64,000 nucleotides of DNA from a virus. The DNA lies in IMG/VR virus record IMGVR_UViG_3300045988_115142; one strand, written 5' to 3'. Shown here one piece after another: positions 2,829 through 63,869 of the stretch. Position numbers and translations under genes: made by a program. Positions within the stretch are counted from its first letter, which is position 1; each line of letters begins with the position of its first letter. The notes under the pieces are model-generated. The model saw nothing but the letters and a program-made list of their open reading frames with translations. It was not told the origin of the DNA and searched no databases.

Positions 2829-3758
2829 CTAAGCAATTTCAGTATAAATAATATATTTACCGTAAGAAACTAGACTAGTACCAAGTACTTTTTCAATTGT
2901 CTTTTGATTGTTTAAGTATACACCACAGAAAGCATCTGTAATCATAGTAATCAAAGCAGGAACGTATTCAGCACCAAAGATAGTAGCAGGTCCATATAAA
3001 TACATCCATTTTTCAATGAATAAAGTTGTAGTTAAACGATCAAGTTTGAATGTTTCTTTAATAAACTCAATGAATGTAGGAAGATCTTTATAATCTTCTT
3101 CATTAGCTACGATAGAAAGAGTCTTAGCTTCAATAGGTCGAACACCAGCAGCTTTAGCAGCTAGTTCAATAACCTTATCTTCATTTACATCTAATTCTGC
3201 TACTGATTGAATGAAGTAACGAGCAGCATGATACATCATCTTATCTTTTTGACCAGGAATATTAGAAATATTACCTACGAAGTCAATAATATGAGTAAAT
3301 AGACGAGCATAGATGTAAGTTAAATCGATAAAGTTCTTACTTGTATTTACATAAGTCTTAGGGATTTTATTATAAACCATATTTACTTTAGCAGATACAA
3401 GATAAGCAATCAACGTTTCAATATTAGCATTGAAACGATTGTTCTTATTTGTTTTAACCAATCCAGTTACATCGATATAGATTTTCTTATTTCTTTTATC
3501 TCTACCATCGCCAGAGTAAATTACTTTAAATGGACGAGGGAAAGGTTTCTTTGGTACAAGAAGTACACAGTTTTCAGAAGTAAGAATCTTCATCAAATAA
3601 GCTGGAGCATTACTACGTTTTACTGGGCTAGCAATGTCTTCGATAAATTCCGTTGTGTTTTTATCTATTCTGGAACCATGCATAATTTCTTTAAGCATGT
3701 CTTGTTCATTTAGCTTATAGCTTTGAAAAATAAAGCCATCTGTAATAGATTTAGCCAC
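2829..3758 (-). CDS. hypothetical protein
   Basis: 309-aa ORF with GTG start, AAAGGA 9 nt upstream, followed by a minus-strand hairpin terminator. No motif recognised. Confidence 0.75.
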   Translation of the reverse strand: MAKSITDGFIFQSYKLNEQDMLKEIMHGSRIDKNTTEFIEDIASPVKRSNAPAYLMKILTSENCVLLVPKKPFPRPFKVIYSGDGRDKRNKKIYIDVTGLVKTNKNNRFNANIETLIAYLVSAKVNMVYNKIPKTYVNTSKNFIDLTYIYARLFTHIIDFVGNISNIPGQKDKMMYHAARYFIQSVAELDVNEDKVIELAAKAAGVRPIEAKTLSIVANEEDYKDLPTFIEFIKETFKLDRLTTTLFIEKWMYLYGPATIFGAEYVPALITMITDAFCGVYLNNQKTIEKVLGTSLVSYGKYIIYTEIA

Positions 3759-4287: not shown

Positions 4288-5052
4288 ATGGTCTTAAATA
4301 GTGATTTAACAAAATCTTATATCAAAATTATTGAAGATATTGTATTACAAGATAAAGATTTTAAAAGTAGTTACGAATGTAACGGTATCAAAGTCCCAAG
4401 AGTAACATCAGTTCTTGGGAGAACTATCCATGATGATTTTTTGATGTATTGGGCTAATAGTTTAGGATTTAAACGTCAAAGTTATAGAAAAGTATTAAAC
4501 CATGCAGCGAATATTGGTACAGAAGTACACAATTACCTTGCTAAACTTATAACTAATTCACCAAATCTAGAACCAGGTCATGATTTGATGCAGGAATCGG
4601 TTAATTGTATTGAATCGTTTGAAACTTGGTGGAGAATGCTTAATGACAAGCACAAAGTAACGGTATTAGGTTCTGAAAAGACTCTAACTTGTCCATACTT
4701 TGGTGGTACTTATGATTTACTACTATCAGTAGATGACAGAATCTTCTTAATGGACTTTAAGACTTCTAATCAAGTATCTTTTAAGTACTTCTTACAATTA
4801 GCAGCTTATAGATATCTTTTATGGTATTGTGAAGGTATTGAAGTTGATGGATTTACTATACTTCGAATGGATAAACGTGATAGTGTATTTGAAGTAGTTC
4901 ATTGTGATATGAATATACCAGAACAAGCTGAATTTATGGAATATTGTCATCAGATGTTCTTTAGTCTATTGACTTCCTATAACTATATCCTAAATATGGA
5001 GAATAAGTTCAAAGATATTTACAAGGAGCTAAAATGGTCGAACGCATTTTAA
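4288..5052 (+). CDS. PD-(D/E)XK (Cas4/RecB/lambda-Exo-like) nuclease, putative
   Basis: GGTYDLLLSVDDRIFLMDFKTS followed by QLAAY matches the D...(D/E)xK...QxxxY nuclease core. Start is uncertain: ATG 4288, 4267 or TTG 4252 are all in frame, and GGGAGGA lies at 4269-4275. Confidence 0.5.
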   Translation: MVLNSDLTKSYIKIIEDIVLQDKDFKSSYECNGIKVPRVTSVLGRTIHDDFLMYWANSLGFKRQSYRKVLNHAANIGTEVHNYLAKLITNSPNLEPGHDLMQESVNCIESFETWWRMLNDKHKVTVLGSEKTLTCPYFGGTYDLLLSVDDRIFLMDFKTSNQVSFKYFLQLAAYRYLLWYCEGIEVDGFTILRMDKRDSVFEVVHCDMNIPEQAEFMEYCHQMFFSLLTSYNYILNMENKFKDIYKELKWSNAF

Positions 5053-5561
5053 TAAGATATATAGTCGGTTATTCTATGACTATACAAAAACTAAGATGGT
5101 TTGCTCCTATTCTTTACTCTATAGTATTATGGTTCTATACTCTTAGCTTCAAATCCACTATAAAGCGATTATTTAAGAGAAATAATCTCTATTGGGCAGC
5201 ATTATGGACTTTTGAGTTAAGTAAAAATAATACTAAGACACATAGCCTATATCTAAATAAACCTATTGGTAGTAAGCTTAAGTATAATATGATTAGGTTT
5301 GTAGGACCAAGTTATAAAGTAACTAAAGATGATATGTACTTTATCGATATCGGTATATTTAGAAACCGTTTGATGAGATATAAGGTCTGTCCTTATGATG
5401 ATGATAGAGTTTCTTGGTCATTATATGAATTAAAACCGAATAGGTATATAGATTCAGGTAATTATAGATTACCTCAATTAGAATCTGAAATAACCAATGA
5501 GTTAGTAGAAATATGTGTACAACTATTCTTAGAACAAGCTAATGAAATTTATAATAAGTAA
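5034..5561 (+). CDS. hypothetical protein with N-terminal hydrophobic segment
   Basis: 175-aa ORF with AAGGAG 5 nt upstream of the ATG. It overlaps the upstream gene by 19 nt and is followed by a terminator hairpin. Confidence 0.65.
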   Translation: MVERILIRYIVGYSMTIQKLRWFAPILYSIVLWFYTLSFKSTIKRLFKRNNLYWAALWTFELSKNNTKTHSLYLNKPIGSKLKYNMIRFVGPSYKVTKDDMYFIDIGIFRNRLMRYKVCPYDDDRVSWSLYELKPNRYIDSGNYRLPQLESEITNELVEICVQLFLEQANEIYNK

Positions 5562-5577
5562 TTTTGCGAAAAAGCCT

Positions 5578-5601
5578 CCGTTACCAGATATCTGGTAACG
5601 G
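5578..5601 (+). terminator. intrinsic terminator
   Basis: CCGTTACCAGATATCTGGTAACGG, then GACTTTTATC. Confidence 0.7.
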
Positions 5602-5650
5602 GACTTTTATCATAAAATTCTCTTCCGGTTTTTCTAAACCGGCAAAATAA

Positions 5651-5664
5651 ACCAAGAACCAAGA
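5651..5664 (+). repeat. tandem ACCAAGA x2
   Basis: ACCAAGAACCAAGA. The first copy is part of an 11-bp complement to 5894-5904. Confidence 0.7.
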
Positions 5665-6083
5665 ATTGACTTATAAAGTTTGTAGTTAATTCTATAGATT
5701 GAGATAATCTACAGTGTGTATTTATAATGTATTTAGCTTTTTTCTGATTTGTCTTATATATGATTTTGATAAGTTTACAGTTTATCTAAAATAAATAAGA
5801 AATGTGGTTAAGTCTAATTCTATTACATCATCTTATTCCATATCAAAAATATAAAAGGTAATGTGATGTTTTGCGAATATGAATAAAATGAAGGGTTCTT
5901 GGTTATGAATTATTAGAAGTATAACAGGGTAATCGTTTAGATTGTTGTTTGACGTATTATAAATGAAAGATGGTCTAAATCGTTACCACAATTATATTCT
6001 AATTATTTATATGTAAATTGATGTAATAAAAAATAAAGTAGGGTGGTCTACTCCATATGGAGTAGACCGAGTACACACATCAT

Positions 6084-6203
6084 TAGTTTGGAGCAGCAAT
6101 GTACGCTTAAGGAAGAAGATACTAGTTTGGCATTAAACGTACAGTATTAAGAGTCATGTTAAGTAGTGTAAGACAGAAAGGTCCACAAGGAGCTTTAGTT
6201 TGG
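6084..6203 (+). repeat. three direct copies of TAGTTTGG (iteron-like)
   Basis: Copies at 6084-6091, 6123-6130 and 6196-6203, read directly from the sequence. Confidence 0.7.
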
Positions 6204-6521
6204 CCATCAAACAAACTAAAGTATTATATTATCTATAAGGAAAGTTACTATAAACGAACAACAGTAGTTATTTAAGCATAGGAGTTTTTATAGACCTGAT
6301 TTTAAATATGTTAATCAACTAAAAACCATATTTAAAACCAACACGAACGGTCTATATCATGTCAAGTATCTTTTTAGTCAGCAGGCTAAAAACGAATATA
6401 AACTAATCACCAAATTTATATTCTTGTAAGTTCACATTTGTTATGGCTGTGTAAAACAAAATGTGACTGATTAAGGTATATATTTTATAAGAGGAAACAA
6501 AACTAGTATCTTTCTTCCTTA
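6108..6521 (+). ncRNA. candidate large structured RNA domain (unclassified)
   Basis: A 21-bp helix (6108-6128 with 6500-6521, one bulged T) encloses at least 5 hairpins with 7-11 bp stems. No ORF in the region. The strand guess rests on G-U pairs in neighbouring stems. Confidence 0.3.
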
Positions 6522-6602
6522 CAATATAGTTCTCAAATTAAAATGTAAAGTTGCTCTAACACGACCATAAGAGACACTTTAAGACAATTTTAGGGGGATA
6601 AT

Positions 6603-7727
6603 ATGCAAGATTTTTTCGTTGAAGCCCATATATCGGATATACATTTTGGAGCTATGGATCCAAAAGAGCAATATAAACTGTTAAAAGACCAATTCATAGA
6701 TCGGCTTATGACCCTACCGATTCTAGATATAGTATCGGTTAATGGTGATATTTTTCATCATAAATTTATGGCTAACTCTGAGTCTGTTTCGTTAGCTTGT
6801 TATTTTATTTCTGATTTGATCAAAGTATGTGCAATCAAAAATGCTACATTGTTAATTATTGCCGGTACTTACTCCCATGATGCGGATCAAATAAAATTAT
6901 TCTACCCTATGGCTGAACAAGCTATAGCAAATGGGACAGACGTTCGGATTATCGAAGAAGTTAAATTCGAAACAGTCAAAGGTAAAAGAATTCTATGTAT
7001 TCCAGAATTATATGGAAAAGGTTCTGAATACTATGAGCAATTCTTATACCAATCTGGATTCTATGATGCATGTTATATGCATGGTACATTCGTAGGTGCT
7101 ATCTTTGGTAAAGATATACCTAATTTGAATTCAGATAGAGAACCAGTATTCTATATGGATCATTTCAGACACTGTGCTGGTCCAATTATATCTGGTCATG
7201 TGCATACACCTGGGTGTTATGCAAAACATTTCTACTATTGTGGTTCTCCATATAGATGGCAATTTGGTGAGGAAGAAGAAAAAGGATTCATCATCATGAT
7301 GCAAGATATGAGAACTCGACAATATGCCGTTCATTATGAACCAATCATATCTGATAAGTATATTACTATCAATATGGATTCCATGATTAATGGAGACCCT
7401 AAAGATATGATAGCATATATTGCTCAAACTATGAAAGAAGAAGATATTAAATATCTTCGAGTTCGATTTACTGAGAGCAATCCAGAGAATTTAGAGATTA
7501 TTCAGACATTTTATCGGAATAATCCTAACGTAAAAATCGAAACTAAAATTCATAATGACAATATAGTACAGAATCTTCAAGAGATTCAAAACGAGTACGA
7601 AAATTATGATTATCTATTCGATAAGAATATTACGCCGGAGAATAAATTGGTTCGATATATTAATCAATCCGAGGGAAGCGTATTTTTGACTTACGAAGAT
7701 TTAATCGGAATCTTACAAAATATTTAA
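6603..7727 (+). CDS. Mre11/SbcD-family (T4 gp47-like) metallophosphoesterase nuclease
   Basis: Calcineurin-like motifs in order: HISDIHFG, NGDIFHH, IAGTYSHD, MHGTF, SGHVHTPG. SD AGGGGG sits 5 nt upstream. Confidence 0.75.
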   Translation: MQDFFVEAHISDIHFGAMDPKEQYKLLKDQFIDRLMTLPILDIVSVNGDIFHHKFMANSESVSLACYFISDLIKVCAIKNATLLIIAGTYSHDADQIKLFYPMAEQAIANGTDVRIIEEVKFETVKGKRILCIPELYGKGSEYYEQFLYQSGFYDACYMHGTFVGAIFGKDIPNLNSDREPVFYMDHFRHCAGPIISGHVHTPGCYAKHFYYCGSPYRWQFGEEEEKGFIIMMQDMRTRQYAVHYEPIISDKYITINMDSMINGDPKDMIAYIAQTMKEEDIKYLRVRFTESNPENLEIIQTFYRNNPNVKIETKIHNDNIVQNLQEIQNEYENYDYLFDKNITPENKLVRYINQSEGSVFLTYEDLIGILQNI

Positions 7728-7757
7728 TTTTAATTCTTGGGAAGGAATTGTGGTACG

Positions 7758-9608
7758 ATGGCAGAAACTATCCGTGAAAGACAGCGTCGTAGAACCAGTA
7801 AGTATGGTACAAAAAGAAACCAAACAGTACGTTTGAATGTAAATTACAACATCCAAATGTTTACTAAGTTCTGTGAATACGCGTTGAGCGAAAATCAAAT
7901 GATTGGAGTTACTGGTCTTGAAAACTTATTGAAAGTATTAAAGGCTAGTGAAGTAAAACACTTCAGCGAAAACGAATCTATGATGCTCAGATATCTATTT
8001 GCTATAGATGCTATTGAGCTTAGATTAAGATACGGGTCTACAATTGGTCGTGATTTATTATTAACCACAATTTGTGGATTGGTTGGTAATAAATATGAAA
8101 ATTTAGATATTCCATCTTTCCAAGAACTTTCTGATGGTGAAGTTAAATGGGTAGAAGATGTTGTTACAAATATCTTAGATACTCAAACTGTAAATAAAAC
8201 TATCGAAAGTTTGAATCTATCCATCGCGGATTATATAAACGGAAGTCCTGAAAATTATTTCGAAAATGCAATGCGTATTAAAGAAATAATTAATGGTGCA
8301 TCTACTCAATTCAATGAAAACTATATTGATACAAATACAGATGAAACAGACTTCTTGTTATCTAATCCAAGAGGACCATTAGATTTAATCATCAATCGTA
8401 AGAAACAACCTTCTTACAAATTGAAAACTGGTATGCATCGGTTTAATGACATTCTTTCTGGCGGTTTCGAAGGTTCTCGTGTTTATTGTTTATTTGGTTT
8501 ACCAGGTGAAGGTAAAACGACAACCTTACTTAATATCTTCTATCAAATTAAGAAGTATAATACAAACTTCAAATGCAAAGATAAAACTAAGAAACCTCTC
8601 TTGTTATTCTTCACAATGGAAAATACAATGAGAGAAGCCGTTGATTCTTTATATACTATCTCTTGCGGTACAGACAAAGATATGGCTGAGTTCACAACAG
8701 ACCAAGTATTAGAACAACTAGCTGAAGAAGGAATGGTAGTTAATGAATCCTCTCCAATTAATATGGCGATTCGTTATAAACCAATCAATTCTGTTGACGT
8801 AAGTTATTTACATCAAATGACAGAAGATTTTGCTAATAGAGGATATGAAGTCATTGGGGTATTATTCGACTATATTAAACGTATTAAACCAATTGATAAT
8901 TATCAAATGGAAGAACGTTTTAAATTAGGTGCAGTAATCAATGACTTGAAAAACTTTGCGAATAGATTTGATATTCCAGTAATCACCGCATCACAAATTA
9001 ACCGTGAGGGTGCTAAAACTGTAGATGAAATTCGTAATAATTCTAAGAAAGATGTTACCGATGGTATCGGTCGTGCTAATATCGGTGAGTCTAGTCTTAT
9101 CGATGAAAACGTAGATGCTACTATCTTTATCGTTCCACAATGGGTCGGTGAAGAAAAGTATATGGGTTTCAAAGTAACTAAGACTCGTTATAAATGCACA
9201 GCAACTGATAGGACTTTCTTCCAACCATTTGACAAAACTAATACTATTAAATTAGTAGAAGATTCTAGACTTGCTTCACCATTGAGTGTACTTAACCTTA
9301 GTGGTAGTAAGAAAGATATTATGAACGGAGCTCCATCAGAAATGTATCGCTTTGATGGTAGTGTAAAATTACCAGAAAGAGAAAATAAATTACTGACAGA
9401 GCCAAGTCCGTTTATGGGTTTAGATAGTGAAGATGAATTAGATATTATACCACAACCTACAGTAGTTCGTAATGAACCAAAAGAGGAAATAGTGGTTGAT
9501 GAATCTGAATTATTACACCCATTCAGTATGATAGAAGAGCCATTGTATGTAATGGATGATATGGATATGAGTAATGGTGAGATTAAAGTAATCTCATTCC
9601 TTGCTTAA
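7758..9608 (+). CDS. DnaB/T4 gp41-like replicative helicase (RecA-fold ATPase)
   Basis: Walker A GLPGEGKTT, Walker B-like GVLFDYI, and a DnaB-type ITASQINREGAK motif. Start chosen at ATG 7758 (MAETIRE...); the track start 7737 is TTG. Confidence 0.75.
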   Translation: MAETIRERQRRRTSKYGTKRNQTVRLNVNYNIQMFTKFCEYALSENQMIGVTGLENLLKVLKASEVKHFSENESMMLRYLFAIDAIELRLRYGSTIGRDLLLTTICGLVGNKYENLDIPSFQELSDGEVKWVEDVVTNILDTQTVNKTIESLNLSIADYINGSPENYFENAMRIKEIINGASTQFNENYIDTNTDETDFLLSNPRGPLDLIINRKKQPSYKLKTGMHRFNDILSGGFEGSRVYCLFGLPGEGKTTTLLNIFYQIKKYNTNFKCKDKTKKPLLLFFTMENTMREAVDSLYTISCGTDKDMAEFTTDQVLEQLAEEGMVVNESSPINMAIRYKPINSVDVSYLHQMTEDFANRGYEVIGVLFDYIKRIKPIDNYQMEERFKLGAVINDLKNFANRFDIPVITASQINREGAKTVDEIRNNSKKDVTDGIGRANIGESSLIDENVDATIFIVPQWVGEEKYMGFKVTKTRYKCTATDRTFFQPFDKTNTIKLVEDSRLASPLSVLNLSGSKKDIMNGAPSEMYRFDGSVKLPERENKLLTEPSPFMGLDSEDELDIIPQPTVVRNEPKEEIVVDESELLHPFSMIEEPLYVMDDMDMSNGEIKVISFLA

Positions 9609-18892: not shown

Positions 18893-18918
18893 GGTGGTAC
18901 CGAATATTCGGTACCACC
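18893..18918 (+). terminator. intrinsic terminator
   Basis: GGTGGTACCGAATATTCGGTACCACC, a perfect palindrome, followed by CTTAATTTC. Confidence 0.65.
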
Positions 18919-27298: not shown

Positions 27299-27324
27299 CC
27301 CATAACCTAATATTAGGTTATGGG
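27299..27324 (+). terminator. intrinsic terminator; CCCAT..AATATT..ATGGG palindrome family
   Basis: CCCATAACCTAATATTAGGTTATGGG, then TTATCTTTTATT. Confidence 0.75.
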
Positions 27325-29572: not shown

Positions 29573-29596
29573 TCCACTACCCAATATTGGGTAGTG
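29573..29596. terminator. bidirectional terminator between convergent genes; palindrome family
   Basis: CCACTACCCAATATTGGGTAGTGG, flanked by AAAAAGGT upstream and TATTCTTTTC downstream. Confidence 0.75.
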
Positions 29597-29609
29597 GTAT
29601 TCTTTTCGC

Positions 29610-33964: not shown

Positions 33965-33990
33965 TCCCATACCCAATATTGGGTATGGGA
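33965..33990 (+). terminator. intrinsic terminator after the tubulin-like gene; palindrome family
   Basis: TCCCATACCCAATATTGGGTATGGGA, then GTTCTTTC. Confidence 0.75.
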
Positions 33991-36122: not shown

Positions 36123-36128
36123 TATATT

Positions 36129-36150
36129 GGGAGCTGAATATTCAGCTCCC
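36129..36150 (+). terminator. intrinsic terminator
   Basis: GGGAGCTGAATATTCAGCTCCC, then ATATTTTTATTTTTTATTTTTT. Confidence 0.8.
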
Positions 36151-36174
36151 ATATTTTTATTTTTTATTTTTTAA

Positions 36175-47590: not shown

Positions 47591-47616
47591 CCCATTACCC
47601 AATATTGGGTAATGGG
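47591..47616 (+). terminator. intrinsic terminator; palindrome family
   Basis: CCCATTACCCAATATTGGGTAATGGG, then GTTTCTTTC. Confidence 0.75.
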
Positions 47617-55790: not shown

Positions 55791-55816
55791 GAGAGTACCC
55801 AATATTGGGTACTCTC
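55791..55816 (+). terminator. intrinsic terminator; CCAATATTGG core
   Basis: GAGAGTACCCAATATTGGGTACTCTC, then TTTCTTTTC. Confidence 0.8.
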
Positions 55817-61674: not shown

Positions 61675-61700
61675 TCCAGAGACTAATATTAGTCTCTGGA
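61675..61700 (+). terminator. intrinsic terminator
   Basis: TCCAGAGACTAATATTAGTCTCTGGA, then GTTTTATTTG. Confidence 0.75.
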
Positions 61701-63096: not shown

Positions 63097-63120
63097 CCCA
63101 TAGCCAATATTGGCTATGGG
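63097..63120 (+). terminator. intrinsic terminator; palindrome family
   Basis: CCCATAGCCAATATTGGCTATGGG, then AATTTTATTTTCTC. Confidence 0.75.
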
Positions 63121-63845: not shown

Positions 63846-63869
63846 AGGGTAGCCAATATTGGCTACCCT
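63846..63869 (+). terminator. intrinsic terminator; palindrome family
   Basis: AGGGTAGCCAATATTGGCTACCCT, then ACTCTTTTATTTATTTTTTTTTT. Confidence 0.8.

What the first reader, a model, noticed from the sequence alone, without database searches (positions are those of the whole stretch)
6108..6521. 414-nt domain closed by a 21-bp long-range helix with at least five internal hairpins
TAAGGAAGAAGATACTAGTTT (6108-6128) is the reverse complement of AAACTAGTATCTTTCTTCCTTA (6500-6521), apart from one extra T in the 6511-6513 run. That gives 11 + 10 contiguous base pairs across a 371-nt separation, far longer than I would expect by chance within 1 kb.

Inside the helix are these hairpins:
- 6193-6202 with 6212-6221 (10 bp).
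- A nested pair: 6289-6296 with 6349-6356 (8 bp), enclosing 6300-6310 with 6327-6337 (11 bp).
- 6371-6377 with 6386-6392 (7 bp).
- 6394-6402 with 6415-6423 (9 bp).
- 6432-6439 with 6459-6466 (8 bp).

This closed multi-branch layout is what a folded RNA domain looks like. It does not look like a string of terminators, because none of the internal stems is followed by a T-tract.
Basis: seen in the sequence. Interest (0 to 1): 0.75.

Follow-up and report, generated by a model that had tools for sequence, protein, structure and literature searches.

The report
Structured non-coding spacer before phage replication genes
A real, evolutionarily maintained 21-base-pair long-range pairing and several hairpins sit in an unusual 1-kb non-coding spacer in front of the replication genes of an uncultivated giant phage; it is most likely a new regulatory RNA leader rather than a free-standing RNA gene, but no one has measured its transcription.

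Summary
The 6108-6128 / 6500-6521 inverted repeat is the longest within 600 nt in the 64 kb, and 0 of 200 shuffles reach 20 bp. All listed hairpins exist.

The window is an AR9/PBS1-like jumbo phage. The feature lies in its only large non-coding gap (5562-6602), upstream of an Mre11/SbcD-like nuclease gene and a DnaB-like helicase gene. Relatives at 67% protein identity or less lack this sequence.

A sister lineage whose spacer is about 73% identical keeps the hairpins through compensatory changes: 14 pairs changed on both sides, against 2.9 in shuffles. It keeps 16 of the 21 closing pairs, one of them compensated and with the bulge shifted.

Three things weaken the "one folded RNA domain" reading:
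- The folding z-score (-4.2) is ordinary for this genome (mean -3.0).
- No Rfam family matches.
- AR9-type early promoter motifs (6225, 6479) lie inside the "domain", and a late one (6558) lies just after it.

Best reading (confidence 0.35): a plus-strand leader module. The pyrimidine-rich 3' arm can mask the gene's ribosome-binding site, the distant 5' arm can capture it in longer transcripts, and late transcripts bypass both.

Rivals are a free-standing ncRNA, a replication origin, an invertible promoter and a mobile-element relic. Transcription is untested.

The parts
5577..5602 (.). Strong bidirectional terminator ending the upstream operon (PD-(D/E)XK nuclease and 175-aa ORF). It marks the left edge of the non-coding spacer.
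   Evidence: Terminator scan on both strands. A 12-bp palindrome with an ATAT loop, like the other terminators of this phage. Conserved in L043.
5928..5987 (.). Long imperfect hairpin in the left half of the spacer. Its left arm carries a minus-strand late-type promoter motif (AACAACAATCTAA, 5949-5937).
   Evidence: Folds at -14 to -16 kcal/mol in the window, L041, L042 and L043, with the inner stem sequence replaced in L043. Promoter motif; the motif is kept in L043 despite sequence change.
6045..6068 (.). H0: a 10-bp palindromic hairpin with an ATAT loop, of the phage's terminator class. The T-rich tail is on the minus strand in this window and on both strands in the sister lineage. It abuts the left end of the long-range stalk.
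   Evidence: Four pairs compensated on both sides in L042/L043. Class comparison. Tails read.
6069..6095 (+). Outer extension of the long-range stalk, 5' side. It pairs with 6528-6556.
   Evidence: RNAalifold consensus. Present in the + strand MFE and centroid. Duplex energy -17.0 kcal/mol on + (z -3.3, p 0.003) against -8.7 on - (z +0.3). Weaker in L042/L043.
6108..6128 (+). 5' arm of the 21-bp closing helix. It is purine-rich and resembles a Shine-Dalgarno sequence (TAAGGAAGAAGATACTAGTTT).
   Evidence: Invariant in 18 close versions. L042/L043 carry AAG->GGA, matched by T->C in the other arm and a shifted bulge, leaving 16 bp.
6193..6221 (+). H2 hairpin (10 bp). Both the sequence and most of the loop are conserved. 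A T-rich tail follows it in most sister contigs, so it may be a weak terminator or a protein-binding site.
   Evidence: It contains one of three copies of TAGTTTGG, an 8-mer found nowhere else in the 64 kb.
6225..6239 (+). P1: an exact match to the AR9 early-promoter core TATATTAT-N6-G. The predicted start is G6239.
   Evidence: PWM rank 14 of ~128,000 positions. Conserved in L043, one mismatch in L042, and a 2-nt insertion in L008/L036. Consensus taken from PMC5312081.
6289..6356 (+). H3: a two-tier hairpin (8 bp + 11 bp) with an invariant loop core AATCAAC.
   Evidence: Five pairs compensated on both sides in L042/L043, plus a G-C->A-U change in L036. A shortened but still paired variant occurs in six contigs.
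6371..6392 (+). H4: a 7-9 bp hairpin. It is not conserved; the sequence is replaced in L041, L042 and L043.
6394..6423 (+). H5: a 9-bp hairpin. Stem and loop (CTAATCACCAAA) are nearly invariant even in the sister lineage, and the loop shares TAATCAMC with the H3 loop.
6432..6466 (+). H6: a hairpin of 8 bp, plus 3 bp after a bulge. It is kept with altered details in L036, L041, L042 and L043.
   Evidence: one compensated pair and one G-U change.
6479..6493 (+). P2: an early-promoter-like motif. It reads TATATTTT-N6-G here and is an exact TATATTAT-N6-G in L042/L043. It is homologous to the single early promoter of the distant relatives.
   Evidence: PWM rank 18.
6500..6521 (+). 3' arm of the closing helix. 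It is pyrimidine-rich (…TCTTTCTTCCTTA) and lies at +7 to +28 of a P2 transcript. It is predicted to pair with the ribosome-binding site when the 5' arm is absent.
   Evidence: Probability of arm-SD pairing is 0.85 in the window, 0.63 in L042 and 0.78 in L043. Arm-SD duplex energy is -8.1 kcal/mol against -26.0 for arm-arm.
6528..6556 (+). Outer extension of the stalk, 3' side. It lies inside a block (6522-6590) that is nearly identical between the lineages.
6558..6570 (+). Late-promoter motif AACA-N6-TA(A), with a predicted start at A6569. [quoted passage not shown]
   Evidence: 8 of 17 such motifs fall in the 7.6% of the window that is intergenic, all correctly oriented. Consensus from PMC5312081. 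The same motif occurs in L011/L013.
6592..6598 (+). Shine-Dalgarno sequence AGGGGGA of the downstream gene (GGGAGGA in L042/L043).
6603..7727 (+). 374-aa Mre11/SbcD-like metallophosphatase gene, a homologue of AR9 g002. It is the first gene of the replication block, followed by the DnaB-like helicase at 7737-9608.
   Evidence: BLASTP against AR9 g002 gives E = 2e-29. AR9 annotation. Helicase assignment.

Best explanation
The feature is part of a lineage-specific, about 1-kb non-coding regulatory spacer. It sits at the head of the early replication operon (Mre11/SbcD-like nuclease, then DnaB-like helicase) of an AR9/PBS1-like jumbo phage, and it works as structured RNA on the + strand.

Shown:
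- The 21-bp pairing is real. On the + strand it extends to roughly 45 bp in total (6069-6128 with 6500-6556).
- Several hairpins are real and are maintained by compensatory change.

Inferred from motifs:
- Two early promoters (P1 at 6225, P2 at 6479) lie between the two arms.
- A late promoter (6558) lies between the 3' arm and the ribosome-binding site.

Inferred mechanism:
- The pyrimidine-rich 3' arm acts as an anti-Shine-Dalgarno element. In P2 (and P1) early transcripts it pairs with AGGGGGA and damps translation of the nuclease.
- In transcripts that start upstream of 6069, or in the presence of a separate upstream RNA that carries the 5' arm, the much stronger arm-arm stalk captures the 3' arm. 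That stalk is also long enough to be an RNase III substrate.
- Late transcripts start after the 3' arm and escape it.
- H3, H5 and H6 would be additional leader elements, with conserved loops of unknown partner.
For: - The inverted repeat is exceptional.
- Stems are maintained across a sister lineage whose spacer is ~73% identical, while third-codon identity of the flanking gene is 83%.
- The four substitutions in the two arms convert one fully paired register into another.
- The stalk extension is stable only on the + strand. The + strand fold has z = -5.4 and contains the whole stalk.
- AT and GC skews of 5850-6600 resemble + strand transcribed DNA.
- The early motif TATAWTAT-N4-RTG occurs 9 times, always on the + strand and always intergenic. 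It equals the AR9 early consensus. P1 and P2 are among the best-scoring sites outside that set, at ranks 14 and 18.
- The late motif is enriched in intergenic DNA.
- Distant relatives have the early and late promoters 17-26 nt apart. Here the 3' arm and its extension fill that interval.
- Arm-SD pairing is predicted in all three lineages tested, despite substitutions on both sides (P = 0.63-0.85).
- SD accessibility is lowest in the P2 transcript: 0.04, against 0.15-0.26 in long or late transcripts.
- AR9 g002, the homologue, has a late monocistronic unit inside an early operon.
- T4 genes e, soc, 49 and I-TevI use the same logic of promoter choice and masked ribosome-binding site (PMC3014915).
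Against: - No transcript data exist, and every promoter is a motif match only.
- No promoter was found that would produce a + strand RNA holding both arms.
- H0 lies immediately upstream of the stalk and looks like a terminator.
- P1- and P2-initiated leaders fold no better than shuffles (z = -0.19 and +1.11).
- The arm-SD pairing is weak (-8.1 kcal/mol), and the SD is mostly paired in every model.
- The arm-SD match in the sister lineage needs a one-base register shift, so it is not strict covariation.
- Pyrimidine runs complementary to an SD are common by chance.
- The stalk extension is weak in L042/L043.
- G-U versus C-A counts in the local hairpins do not favour either strand.
Confidence: 0.35

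Rival explanations
1. A free-standing structured non-coding RNA of about 420-490 nt whose 5' and 3' ends pair in the closing stalk. It could be on the + strand, or on the - strand ending at the 6045-6068 hairpin.
For: - The closed multi-branch fold appears on both strands.
- Stems are compensated and loops conserved.
- The core helix has probability 0.99-1.00 in long transcripts of all three lineages.
- In this window H0 has its T-rich tail on the - strand, as if it ended a leftward transcript.
- There is no conserved ORF.
Against: - No promoter motif of either class is placed to make such an RNA on either strand.
- Conserved + strand promoter motifs lie inside it.
- The stalk extension fails on the - strand.
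- No Rfam match, including the large phage-associated families.
- It is confined to one species-level lineage and its sister.
- The spacer 6134-6192 and hairpin H4 are not conserved.
Confidence: 0.2
2. A DNA-level replication element: an origin or a single-strand priming/helicase-loading signal. The hairpins would extrude in single-stranded DNA, and transcription from P1/P2 would help initiation, as at the T7 and T4 origins (own knowledge).
For: - It is the only large non-coding gap in 64 kb.
- It lies directly next to nuclease and helicase genes.
- It is AT-rich and carries tandem promoter motifs.
- TAGTTTGG occurs three times here and nowhere else in the window, and other local repeats are present.
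- Strand-specific hairpins with conserved loops also fit single-strand origins.
Against: - It is absent from syntenic relatives, which have only 14-110 nt here or unrelated spacers of 390-480 nt. An essential origin would be expected to persist.
- The change in gene orientation and GC skew lies at about 3.8 kb, not here.
- There is no iteron array.
Confidence: 0.15
3. A relic of a mobile or rearranged DNA segment, with no present function for the long-range pairing. It could be a MITE-like element with 19-21-bp terminal inverted repeats and a TA duplication, or an inverted duplication.
For: - The inverted repeats bound a 414-bp non-coding segment.
- TA lies at both outer ends.
- The whole spacer is an insertion relative to more distant relatives.
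Against: - It is single-copy in the window and in public viral, metagenome-derived and genome collections.
- No empty site is known, and no transposase remnant was found.
- The arms changed in a coordinated way between lineages instead of decaying.
Confidence: 0.1
4. An invertible promoter segment. The 21-bp repeats would be recombination sites, and flipping 6129-6499 would turn P1/P2 away from the nuclease gene toward the 6045-6068 terminator.
For: - The architecture matches known switches: imperfect inverted repeats of about 20 bp flank a few hundred bp that contain outward-facing promoter motifs just upstream of a gene.
- H0 has a minus-strand T-tail that could stop leftward transcripts.
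Against: - All 22 distinct assembled versions are collinear and none is inverted.
- The bulge differs in position between lineages.
- The strand-asymmetric stalk extension and the compensated internal hairpins are not explained.
- No recombinase was looked for or seen.
Confidence: 0.05

Closest known systems
T4 promoter-dependent masking of ribosome-binding sites (genes e, soc, 49, I-TevI; PMC3014915)
   Same: An upstream segment of the leader pairs with the Shine-Dalgarno region in longer, earlier transcripts. A late promoter lies between that segment and the ribosome-binding site, so late transcripts lack the inhibitory arm.
   Different: - The inhibitory pairing here is weak and only predicted.
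- There is a third partner, the 5' arm, about 400 nt upstream. It pairs far more strongly with the inhibitory arm.
- The promoters are of the AR9 (phage multisubunit RNA polymerase) type.
- The gene is a replication/recombination nuclease, not a lysis or homing gene.
Anti-antisense opening of a leader (rpoS leader with DsrA/RprA) and same-strand antisense RNAs of phage P1 (c4) and satellite P4 (CI RNA) (own knowledge, not tested here)
   Same: A sequence encoded upstream on the same strand is complementary to a downstream leader segment, and it changes that segment's pairing state.
   Different: - No evidence here that the 5' arm is released as a separate RNA.
- No processing signals were identified.
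- There is no sequence similarity.
RNase III processing stalks (rRNA precursors, T7 early mRNAs) (own knowledge)
   Same: A long-range duplex of at least 20 bp brackets a several-hundred-nt RNA segment.
   Different: Cleavage is untested, and no conserved internal-loop features of known sites were examined.
Large phage-associated structured RNAs in Rfam (GOLLD, ROOL, HEARO, OLE)
   Same: A long non-coding region of several hundred nt, with many hairpins, in a phage genome.
   Different: - No match to any of the 4,227 Rfam models, even at E up to 10.
- The distribution is very narrow.
- Promoter motifs lie inside it.
AR9 early operon g001-g009 (PMC5312081; KU878088)
   Same: - The first long gene is homologous (g002 Mre11/SbcD-like) and a DnaB-like helicase lies downstream.
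- The same early and late promoter consensus sequences are used.
- The gene is served by both promoter classes.
   Different: AR9 has only about 150 nt of divergent promoter region here and a small gene, g001. It has no 1-kb spacer and no long inverted repeat.
Invertible promoters (fimS; Clostridioides difficile cwpV and flgB switches) (own knowledge)
   Same: Imperfect repeats of about 21 bp flank a promoter-bearing segment next to a gene.
   Different: No inverted version occurs among 22 assemblies, and no recombinase was identified.

Membership tests
Any Rfam 15 RNA family | Covariance-model score at or above the family's gathering threshold | tested here: not met
   Zero matches at gathering threshold in the whole window. 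In 5400-6800 only chance-level matches to snoRNA and lncRNA models, E = 2-9, far below their thresholds.
Structured RNA under selection (generic) | Base pairs kept through compensatory substitutions in relatives, above controls | tested here: met
   Fourteen pairs changed on both sides, against 2.9 +/- 1.5 in shuffles (0 of 500 reach it) and 0-2 when partners are slid. The signal is concentrated in 6045-6068 and 6289-6356. The closing helix contributes one compensated pair.
Structured RNA under selection (generic) | Folding energy lower than expected for this genome | tested here: not met
   z = -4.2 against the region's own shuffles, but the genome background is mean -3.0, sd 1.8, and 12 of 44 windows are as low.
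AR9-type early (virion RNA polymerase) promoter | TATATTAT-N6-G core in intergenic DNA, oriented toward a gene | tested here: met
   P1 at 6225-6239 is exact. P2 at 6479-6493 has one mismatch here and is exact in L042/L043. Activity cannot be tested with these tools.
AR9-type late (non-virion RNA polymerase) promoter | AACA-N6-TA/G upstream of a gene | tested here: met
   6558-6570. The motif is enriched in intergenic DNA, with 8 of 17 sites in 7.6% of the sequence. Whether the DNA contains uracil, and whether the promoter is active, cannot be tested.
T4-like promoter-dependent translational masking | Leader segment complementary to the SD, with a late start site between it and the SD | tested here: met
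   6513-6519 pairs with 6592-6598 in the MFE and centroid folds, with P = 0.85. The pairing is also predicted in L042/L043. The late motif at 6558-6570 lies between the two.
T4-like promoter-dependent translational masking | Lower translation from the longer transcripts | not testable with these tools
   Only predicted SD accessibility is available: 0.04 in the P2 transcript against 0.15-0.26 in the others.
Invertible promoter (inverton) | Both orientations of the segment found in natural populations | tested here: not met
   All 22 distinct assembled versions are collinear with the window. Read-level data were not available.
Invertible promoter (inverton) | A site-specific recombinase encoded by the element or genome | not tested
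   Only 9 of about 60 window proteins were scanned, and the rest of the ~255-kb genome was not available.
MITE / non-autonomous transposon | Multiple copies, and target-site duplication flanking the terminal repeats | tested here: not met
   Single copy in the window. In public collections it occurs only at this locus. The TA at both ends is self-complementary and therefore uninformative.
Intrinsic terminators of this phage | 10-13-bp palindrome with an (A)ATAT(T) loop followed by a T-rich tail | tested here: inconclusive
   6045-6068 has the stem and the loop. Its + strand tail is not T-rich in this window but is in L042/L043, and its - strand tail is T-rich. None of the hairpins inside the domain belongs to the class.
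Replication origin | Skew or orientation switch, iterons, conservation of position | tested here: inconclusive
   The region is AT-rich and has local repeats. However, the orientation and skew switch is at about 3.8 kb, and the sequence is absent from syntenic relatives.

The most novel reading that the evidence does not exclude
The roughly 490-nt segment 6069-6556 is a new kind of phage riboregulator: a closed, multi-hairpin RNA module inserted between an operon's terminator and its late promoter. Its roughly 45-bp long-range stalk would act over about 400 nt as an anti-anti-Shine-Dalgarno element or as an RNase III gate. The translational fate of the replication nuclease mRNA would then depend on which of three or four start sites was used. 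Alternatively, it could be an excised stable ncRNA with conserved AATCAMC loops that bind an unknown partner. Unrelated spacers with their own long inverted repeats at the same site in other lineages (L044/L051) would then be analogous modules.
Probability: 0.25. Interest if true: 0.6.

Novelty: new member of a known kind. Interest (0 to 1): 0.45.

Why it matters
Jumbo phages of the AR9/PBS1 type transcribe their genomes with their own multisubunit RNA polymerases, and almost nothing is known about their post-transcriptional control.

If this spacer works as proposed, several things follow:
- It would be the first example in this group of promoter-dependent RNA structure controlling a replication/recombination gene.
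- It would extend the T4 "masked ribosome-binding site" logic with a long-range third partner.
- It would show that the head of the early replication operon is a hot spot where different lineages have acquired different long non-coding inserts.

Practically, it gives a compact set of compensatory-mutation experiments. It also shows that AR9 early and late promoter motifs can be read directly in uncultivated human-associated relatives.

If instead it is an origin or a relic, the finding is of local interest only.

Tried and rejected
- **Rfam:** nothing at gathering threshold on the whole window, and only chance-level matches in the permissive search of 5400-6800. No tRNA or tmRNA.
- **Nucleotide searches of the phage collection:** both near and distant modes found no match.
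- **Decayed gene:** all six frames carry 19-34 stops and give no Pfam hit at E up to 1.
- **Small conserved ORF or type I toxin:** every ORF of 12 aa or more is broken by frameshifts or stops in close or sister versions. The one exception is a 14-aa minus-strand ORF inside an invariant block, which carries no information.
- **Multi-copy element:** the arm and the H5 hairpin sequence occur only at this locus. The extra 18-mer hits in viral and bacterial collections are chance matches without the hairpin.
- **Minus-strand promoter for an RNA across the domain:** none of either class. The only minus-strand late motif, at 5949, points away from the domain.
- **Upstream plus-strand promoter:** the conserved TTATAATGTATT at 5720 has no counterpart elsewhere in the window.
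- **Strand assignment from G-U versus C-A mismatches in the hairpins:** about equal, so uninformative.
- **Repeated loop motif TAATCAMC elsewhere in the window:** not found in hairpin loops.
- **Recurrence of long inverted repeats in the unrelated spacers of L044 and L048:** they are present, but only slightly above the background of those AT-rich loci.
- **AR9 itself:** it has no equivalent spacer.
- **First z-score background scan:** it timed out and was repeated on a smaller scale.
Full report
**What is in the sequence**

TAAGGAAGAAGATACTAGTTT (6108-6128) pairs with AAACTAGTATCTTTCTTCCTTA (6500-6521) as 10 + 11 bp around one bulged T. The duplex energy is -26.0 kcal/mol.

A scan of the whole 64 kb for inverted repeats within 600 nt, allowing one defect, puts this pair first at 21 bp. 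The next long-range pair has 14 bp. In 200 dinucleotide shuffles of the window, the longest stem was 12-19 bp. The five internal hairpin groups are all present in the minimum-free-energy folds of both strands.

**The energy test does not discriminate**

The region folds better than its own shuffles: z = -4.16 on the + strand and -3.61 on the - strand. However, 44 other 451-nt windows of the same genome average z = -3.03 (sd 1.77), and 12 of them are at least as low. This is probably because most genes are followed by a strong palindromic terminator. Most of the signal here comes from the 21-bp helix. Leaders that start at the predicted internal promoters fold no better than shuffles (z = -0.19 and +1.11).

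**Context**

- The window comes from a jumbo phage. Near-identical contigs are 252-255 kb long and come from IMG/VR and public metagenome assemblies, some carrying Human Microbiome Project-style sample numbers.
- Its DnaB-like helicase is closest to those of Bacillus phages AR9 and PBS1, at 31% identity.
- The feature lies in the only large non-coding gap of the window, 5562-6602 (the apparent gap at 1-2760 is an ORF running off the window edge).
- Upstream are a PD-(D/E)XK nuclease gene and a 175-aa ORF, ended by a strong terminator at 5577-5602.
- Downstream is a 374-aa gene homologous to AR9 g002, an Mre11/SbcD-like metallophosphatase (E = 2e-29). The helicase gene follows it.
- In AR9 this is the early operon g001-g009, in which g002 also has its own late transcription unit.

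**Distribution**

Twenty-two distinct versions of the spacer were recovered.
- Twenty are 90-99% identical to the window.
- Two (L042, L043) belong to a sister lineage. Its nuclease gene is 93% identical in nucleotides (83% at third codon positions), but its spacer is only about 73% identical.
- Relatives whose nuclease is 44-67% identical keep the gene order but lack this sequence. They have only 14-110 nt at this position, or unrelated spacers of 390 and 480 nt.
- The sequence occurs nowhere else in the window or in the viral and bacterial collections.
- It matches no Rfam family, contains no detectable gene remnant and has no conserved small ORF.

**Covariation**

| Measure | Observed | Shuffles | Slid partners |
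|---|---|---|---|
| Cells paired | 96.9% | – | – |
| Pairs changed on both sides | 14 | 2.9 +/- 1.5 (0 of 500 reach 14) | 0-2 |

Helix by helix:
- **6045-6068:** four compensated pairs with an invariant ATAT loop.
- **6289-6356:** five compensated pairs in L042/L043, a further G-C to A-U change in L036, and a shortened but still paired variant in six contigs. The loop core AATCAAC is invariant.
- **6432-6466:** kept with altered details.
- **6193-6221 and 6394-6423:** invariant or nearly so, including most of their loops. This says nothing about pairing, but it does indicate sequence-specific constraint.
- **6371-6392:** not conserved.
- **Closing helix:** invariant in the close versions. In L042/L043 the 5' arm carries AAG to GGA and the 3' arm T to C. 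Together these turn a 10 + bulge + 11 helix into a fully Watson-Crick 6 + bulge + 10 helix, while the inner five pairs are lost. The helix is still in the predicted fold of both sister sequences, with probability 0.99-1.00 in long-transcript models.

This is suggestive support for selection on the long-range complementarity, not strong support.

**Which strand, and RNA or DNA?**

- Watson-Crick covariation cannot tell strands apart, and G-U versus C-A counts in the hairpins are balanced.
- RNAalifold extends the stalk outward, pairing 6069-6095 with 6528-6556.
- This extension contains several G-U pairs. Its energy is -17.0 kcal/mol on the + strand (z = -3.3, p = 0.003; 2.8% of genomic segment pairs at the same spacing do as well), but only -8.7 (z = +0.3) on the - strand.
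- The extension is weaker in the sister lineage.
- Base skews of 5850-6600 also resemble + strand transcribed DNA.

I take this as moderate evidence for a + strand single-stranded molecule, most simply RNA.

**Promoter motifs**

The AR9 early consensus is AAATATATATTAT-N6-G and the late one is AACA-N6-TA/G (PMC5312081).
- **Early motif in the window.** TATAWTAT-N4-RTG occurs nine times, always on the + strand and always in front of a gene.
- **Late motif in the window.** AACA-N6-TA(A/G) has 8 of its 17 occurrences in the 7.6% of the DNA that is intergenic, all correctly oriented.
An exact early core lies at 6225-6239 (P1). A one-mismatch core lies at 6479-6493 (P2); it is exact in L042/L043 and homologous to the single early promoter of the distant relatives. 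These two rank 14th and 18th of about 128,000 positions with a matrix built from the nine sites.
- **After the domain.** A late motif lies at 6558-6570, 34 nt before the start codon.
- **Comparison with distant relatives.** There the early and late motifs are 17-26 nt apart. In this window the 3' arm and its extension (6500-6556) fill that interval.
- **Consequence.** P1 and P2 transcripts would carry only the 3' arm, late transcripts would carry neither arm, and only transcripts that start upstream of 6069 would carry both.
- **Missing promoter.** I found no promoter motif for such an upstream-starting transcript. In addition, 6045-6068, immediately upstream, belongs to the phage's terminator class, although in this window its T-rich tail is on the - strand.

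**Proposed mechanism (inferred)**

The 3' arm is pyrimidine-rich (UCUUUCUUCCUUA) and the 5' arm resembles a Shine-Dalgarno sequence.
- In a P2 transcript the 3' arm is predicted to pair with the true ribosome-binding site AGGGGGA (6592-6598), with probability 0.85.
- The sister lineage has CUCCC opposite GGGAG and gives 0.63-0.78, though with a one-base register shift.
- Predicted accessibility of the ribosome-binding site is 0.04 in P2 transcripts, 0.12-0.15 in P1 transcripts, 0.15-0.19 in late transcripts and 0.17-0.26 in long transcripts.
- The arm-arm duplex (-26 kcal/mol, more with the extension) would easily out-compete the arm-SD duplex (-8.1).

This is the logic of T4 genes e, soc, 49 and I-TevI, where a late promoter lies between an inhibitory leader arm and the ribosome-binding site (PMC3014915). 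Here there would be an added distant anti-inhibitor. That stalk is also long enough to be an RNase III substrate, by the roughly 20-bp rule (own knowledge).

The differences in predicted accessibility are small and every step is computational, so I give this specific model a confidence of 0.35.

**Rivals**

- **Free-standing ncRNA (0.2).** This fits the closed fold and the compensated stems. It lacks a promoter, it has promoter motifs inside it, and on the - strand it loses the stalk extension.
- **Replication origin or single-strand priming signal (0.15).** This fits the location, the AT-richness, the tandem promoter motifs and the local repeats (TAGTTTGG three times, only here). However, the sequence is missing from syntenic relatives, and the skew and orientation switch is about 2 kb away.
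- **Mobile-element relic (0.1).** It is single-copy, and the arms co-vary rather than decay.
- **Invertible promoter (0.05).** The architecture is right, but none of 22 assemblies is inverted and the strand asymmetry is unexplained.

**Verdict**

There is real selection for base pairing, including modest evidence for the long-range helix. The best reading is a composite regulatory leader, with promoters embedded in it, rather than one autonomous folded RNA domain. It is restricted to a narrow phage lineage and matches no described RNA family. Transcription is untested.

Noticed in passing
window 61675-61700, 55791-55816, 47591-47616, 33965-33990, 27299-27324, 18893-18918, 63846-63869, 63097-63120, 36128-36151, 29574-29597, 5578-5601, 6045-6068: The phage's intergenic terminators form a stereotyped family. 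They are perfect 10-13-bp palindromes centred on (A)ATAT(T), usually …CCAATATTGG…, followed by a T-rich tail and often preceded by an A-rich stretch. They probably explain why ordinary 451-nt windows of this genome fold about 3 sd better than their shuffles.
   Followed up: partly
window 4255, 10768, 13636, 15324, 23427, 38442, 43248, 60009, 63916 (+ strand): Nine exact copies of TATAWTAT-N4-RTG, all on the + strand and all upstream of genes. The motif equals the AR9 early-promoter consensus. Most copies are followed within about 5-25 nt by a small hairpin, presumably a 5' stabiliser.
   Followed up: partly
window 3817(-), 5949(-), 6558(+), 14702(+), 30766(-), 30882(-), 30912(+), 55854(+): The AR9 late-promoter motif AACA-N6-TA(A/G) is strongly enriched in intergenic DNA and correctly oriented, including in front of the virion-protein gene 2829-3758. 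AR9 promoter grammar can therefore be read in this uncultivated relative.
   Followed up: partly
window 5578-5949, minus strand: A minus-strand late-type promoter (5949-5937) points toward the bidirectional terminator at 5601-5578. No ORF lies between them, and AT skew is negative there. This may be a separate non-coding late transcript of about 350 nt. The promoter motif is kept in L043 even though the surrounding sequence changed.
   Followed up: partly
window 5928-5987: A long imperfect hairpin in the left half of the spacer is structurally kept in L041, L042 and L043, with the inner stem replaced in L043.
   Followed up: partly
L044 2684-2707 / 2899-2922 (also L051); L048 2609-2625 / 2765-2781 and 2827-2843 / 2910-2926: Lineages with 57-67% nuclease identity carry unrelated spacers of 390-480 nt at the same position, and these have their own long inverted repeats. 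In L044 the repeat is 24 nt and 92% complementary, again with a purine-rich left arm and a pyrimidine-rich right arm. These repeats are only slightly above the background of those loci.
   Followed up: partly
window 6522-6590: A block of about 70 nt is almost identical between the window and the sister lineage, although neighbouring third-codon positions differ by 17%. It holds the stalk extension, the late-promoter motif inside a small inverted repeat (AAAGTTGCTCT…AGAGACACTTT), and a 14-aa minus-strand ORF (6533-6577). What constrains the whole block is not explained.
   Followed up: no
window 6084, 6123, 6196 (+); 5985-6000 and 6409-6424: Two local direct repeats. TAGTTTGG occurs three times within 120 nt and nowhere else in the 64 kb. 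ACCA(C/A)A(A/T)TTATATTCT occurs twice, both copies conserved in the sister lineage. They could be protein-binding sites.
   Followed up: no
window 5034-5561: The 175-aa ORF just upstream of the spacer has no Pfam or PHROG match. It is much more diverged from L043 (79% nucleotide identity) than the neighbouring nuclease and helicase genes (92-93%).
   Followed up: no
L005 and L010 (IMGVR_UViG_3300006832_000004): One 86-kb contig contains the locus twice, in opposite orientations, with identical sequence. This is probably a fold-back assembly artefact.
   Followed up: no
phage records OM728297 (Goe21) and MW749003 (Internexus): The DnaB-like helicase match is split into 2-3 pieces in these AR9-like Bacillus phages. 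This is consistent with introns or inteins interrupting the gene. The window's helicase gene is uninterrupted.
   Followed up: no
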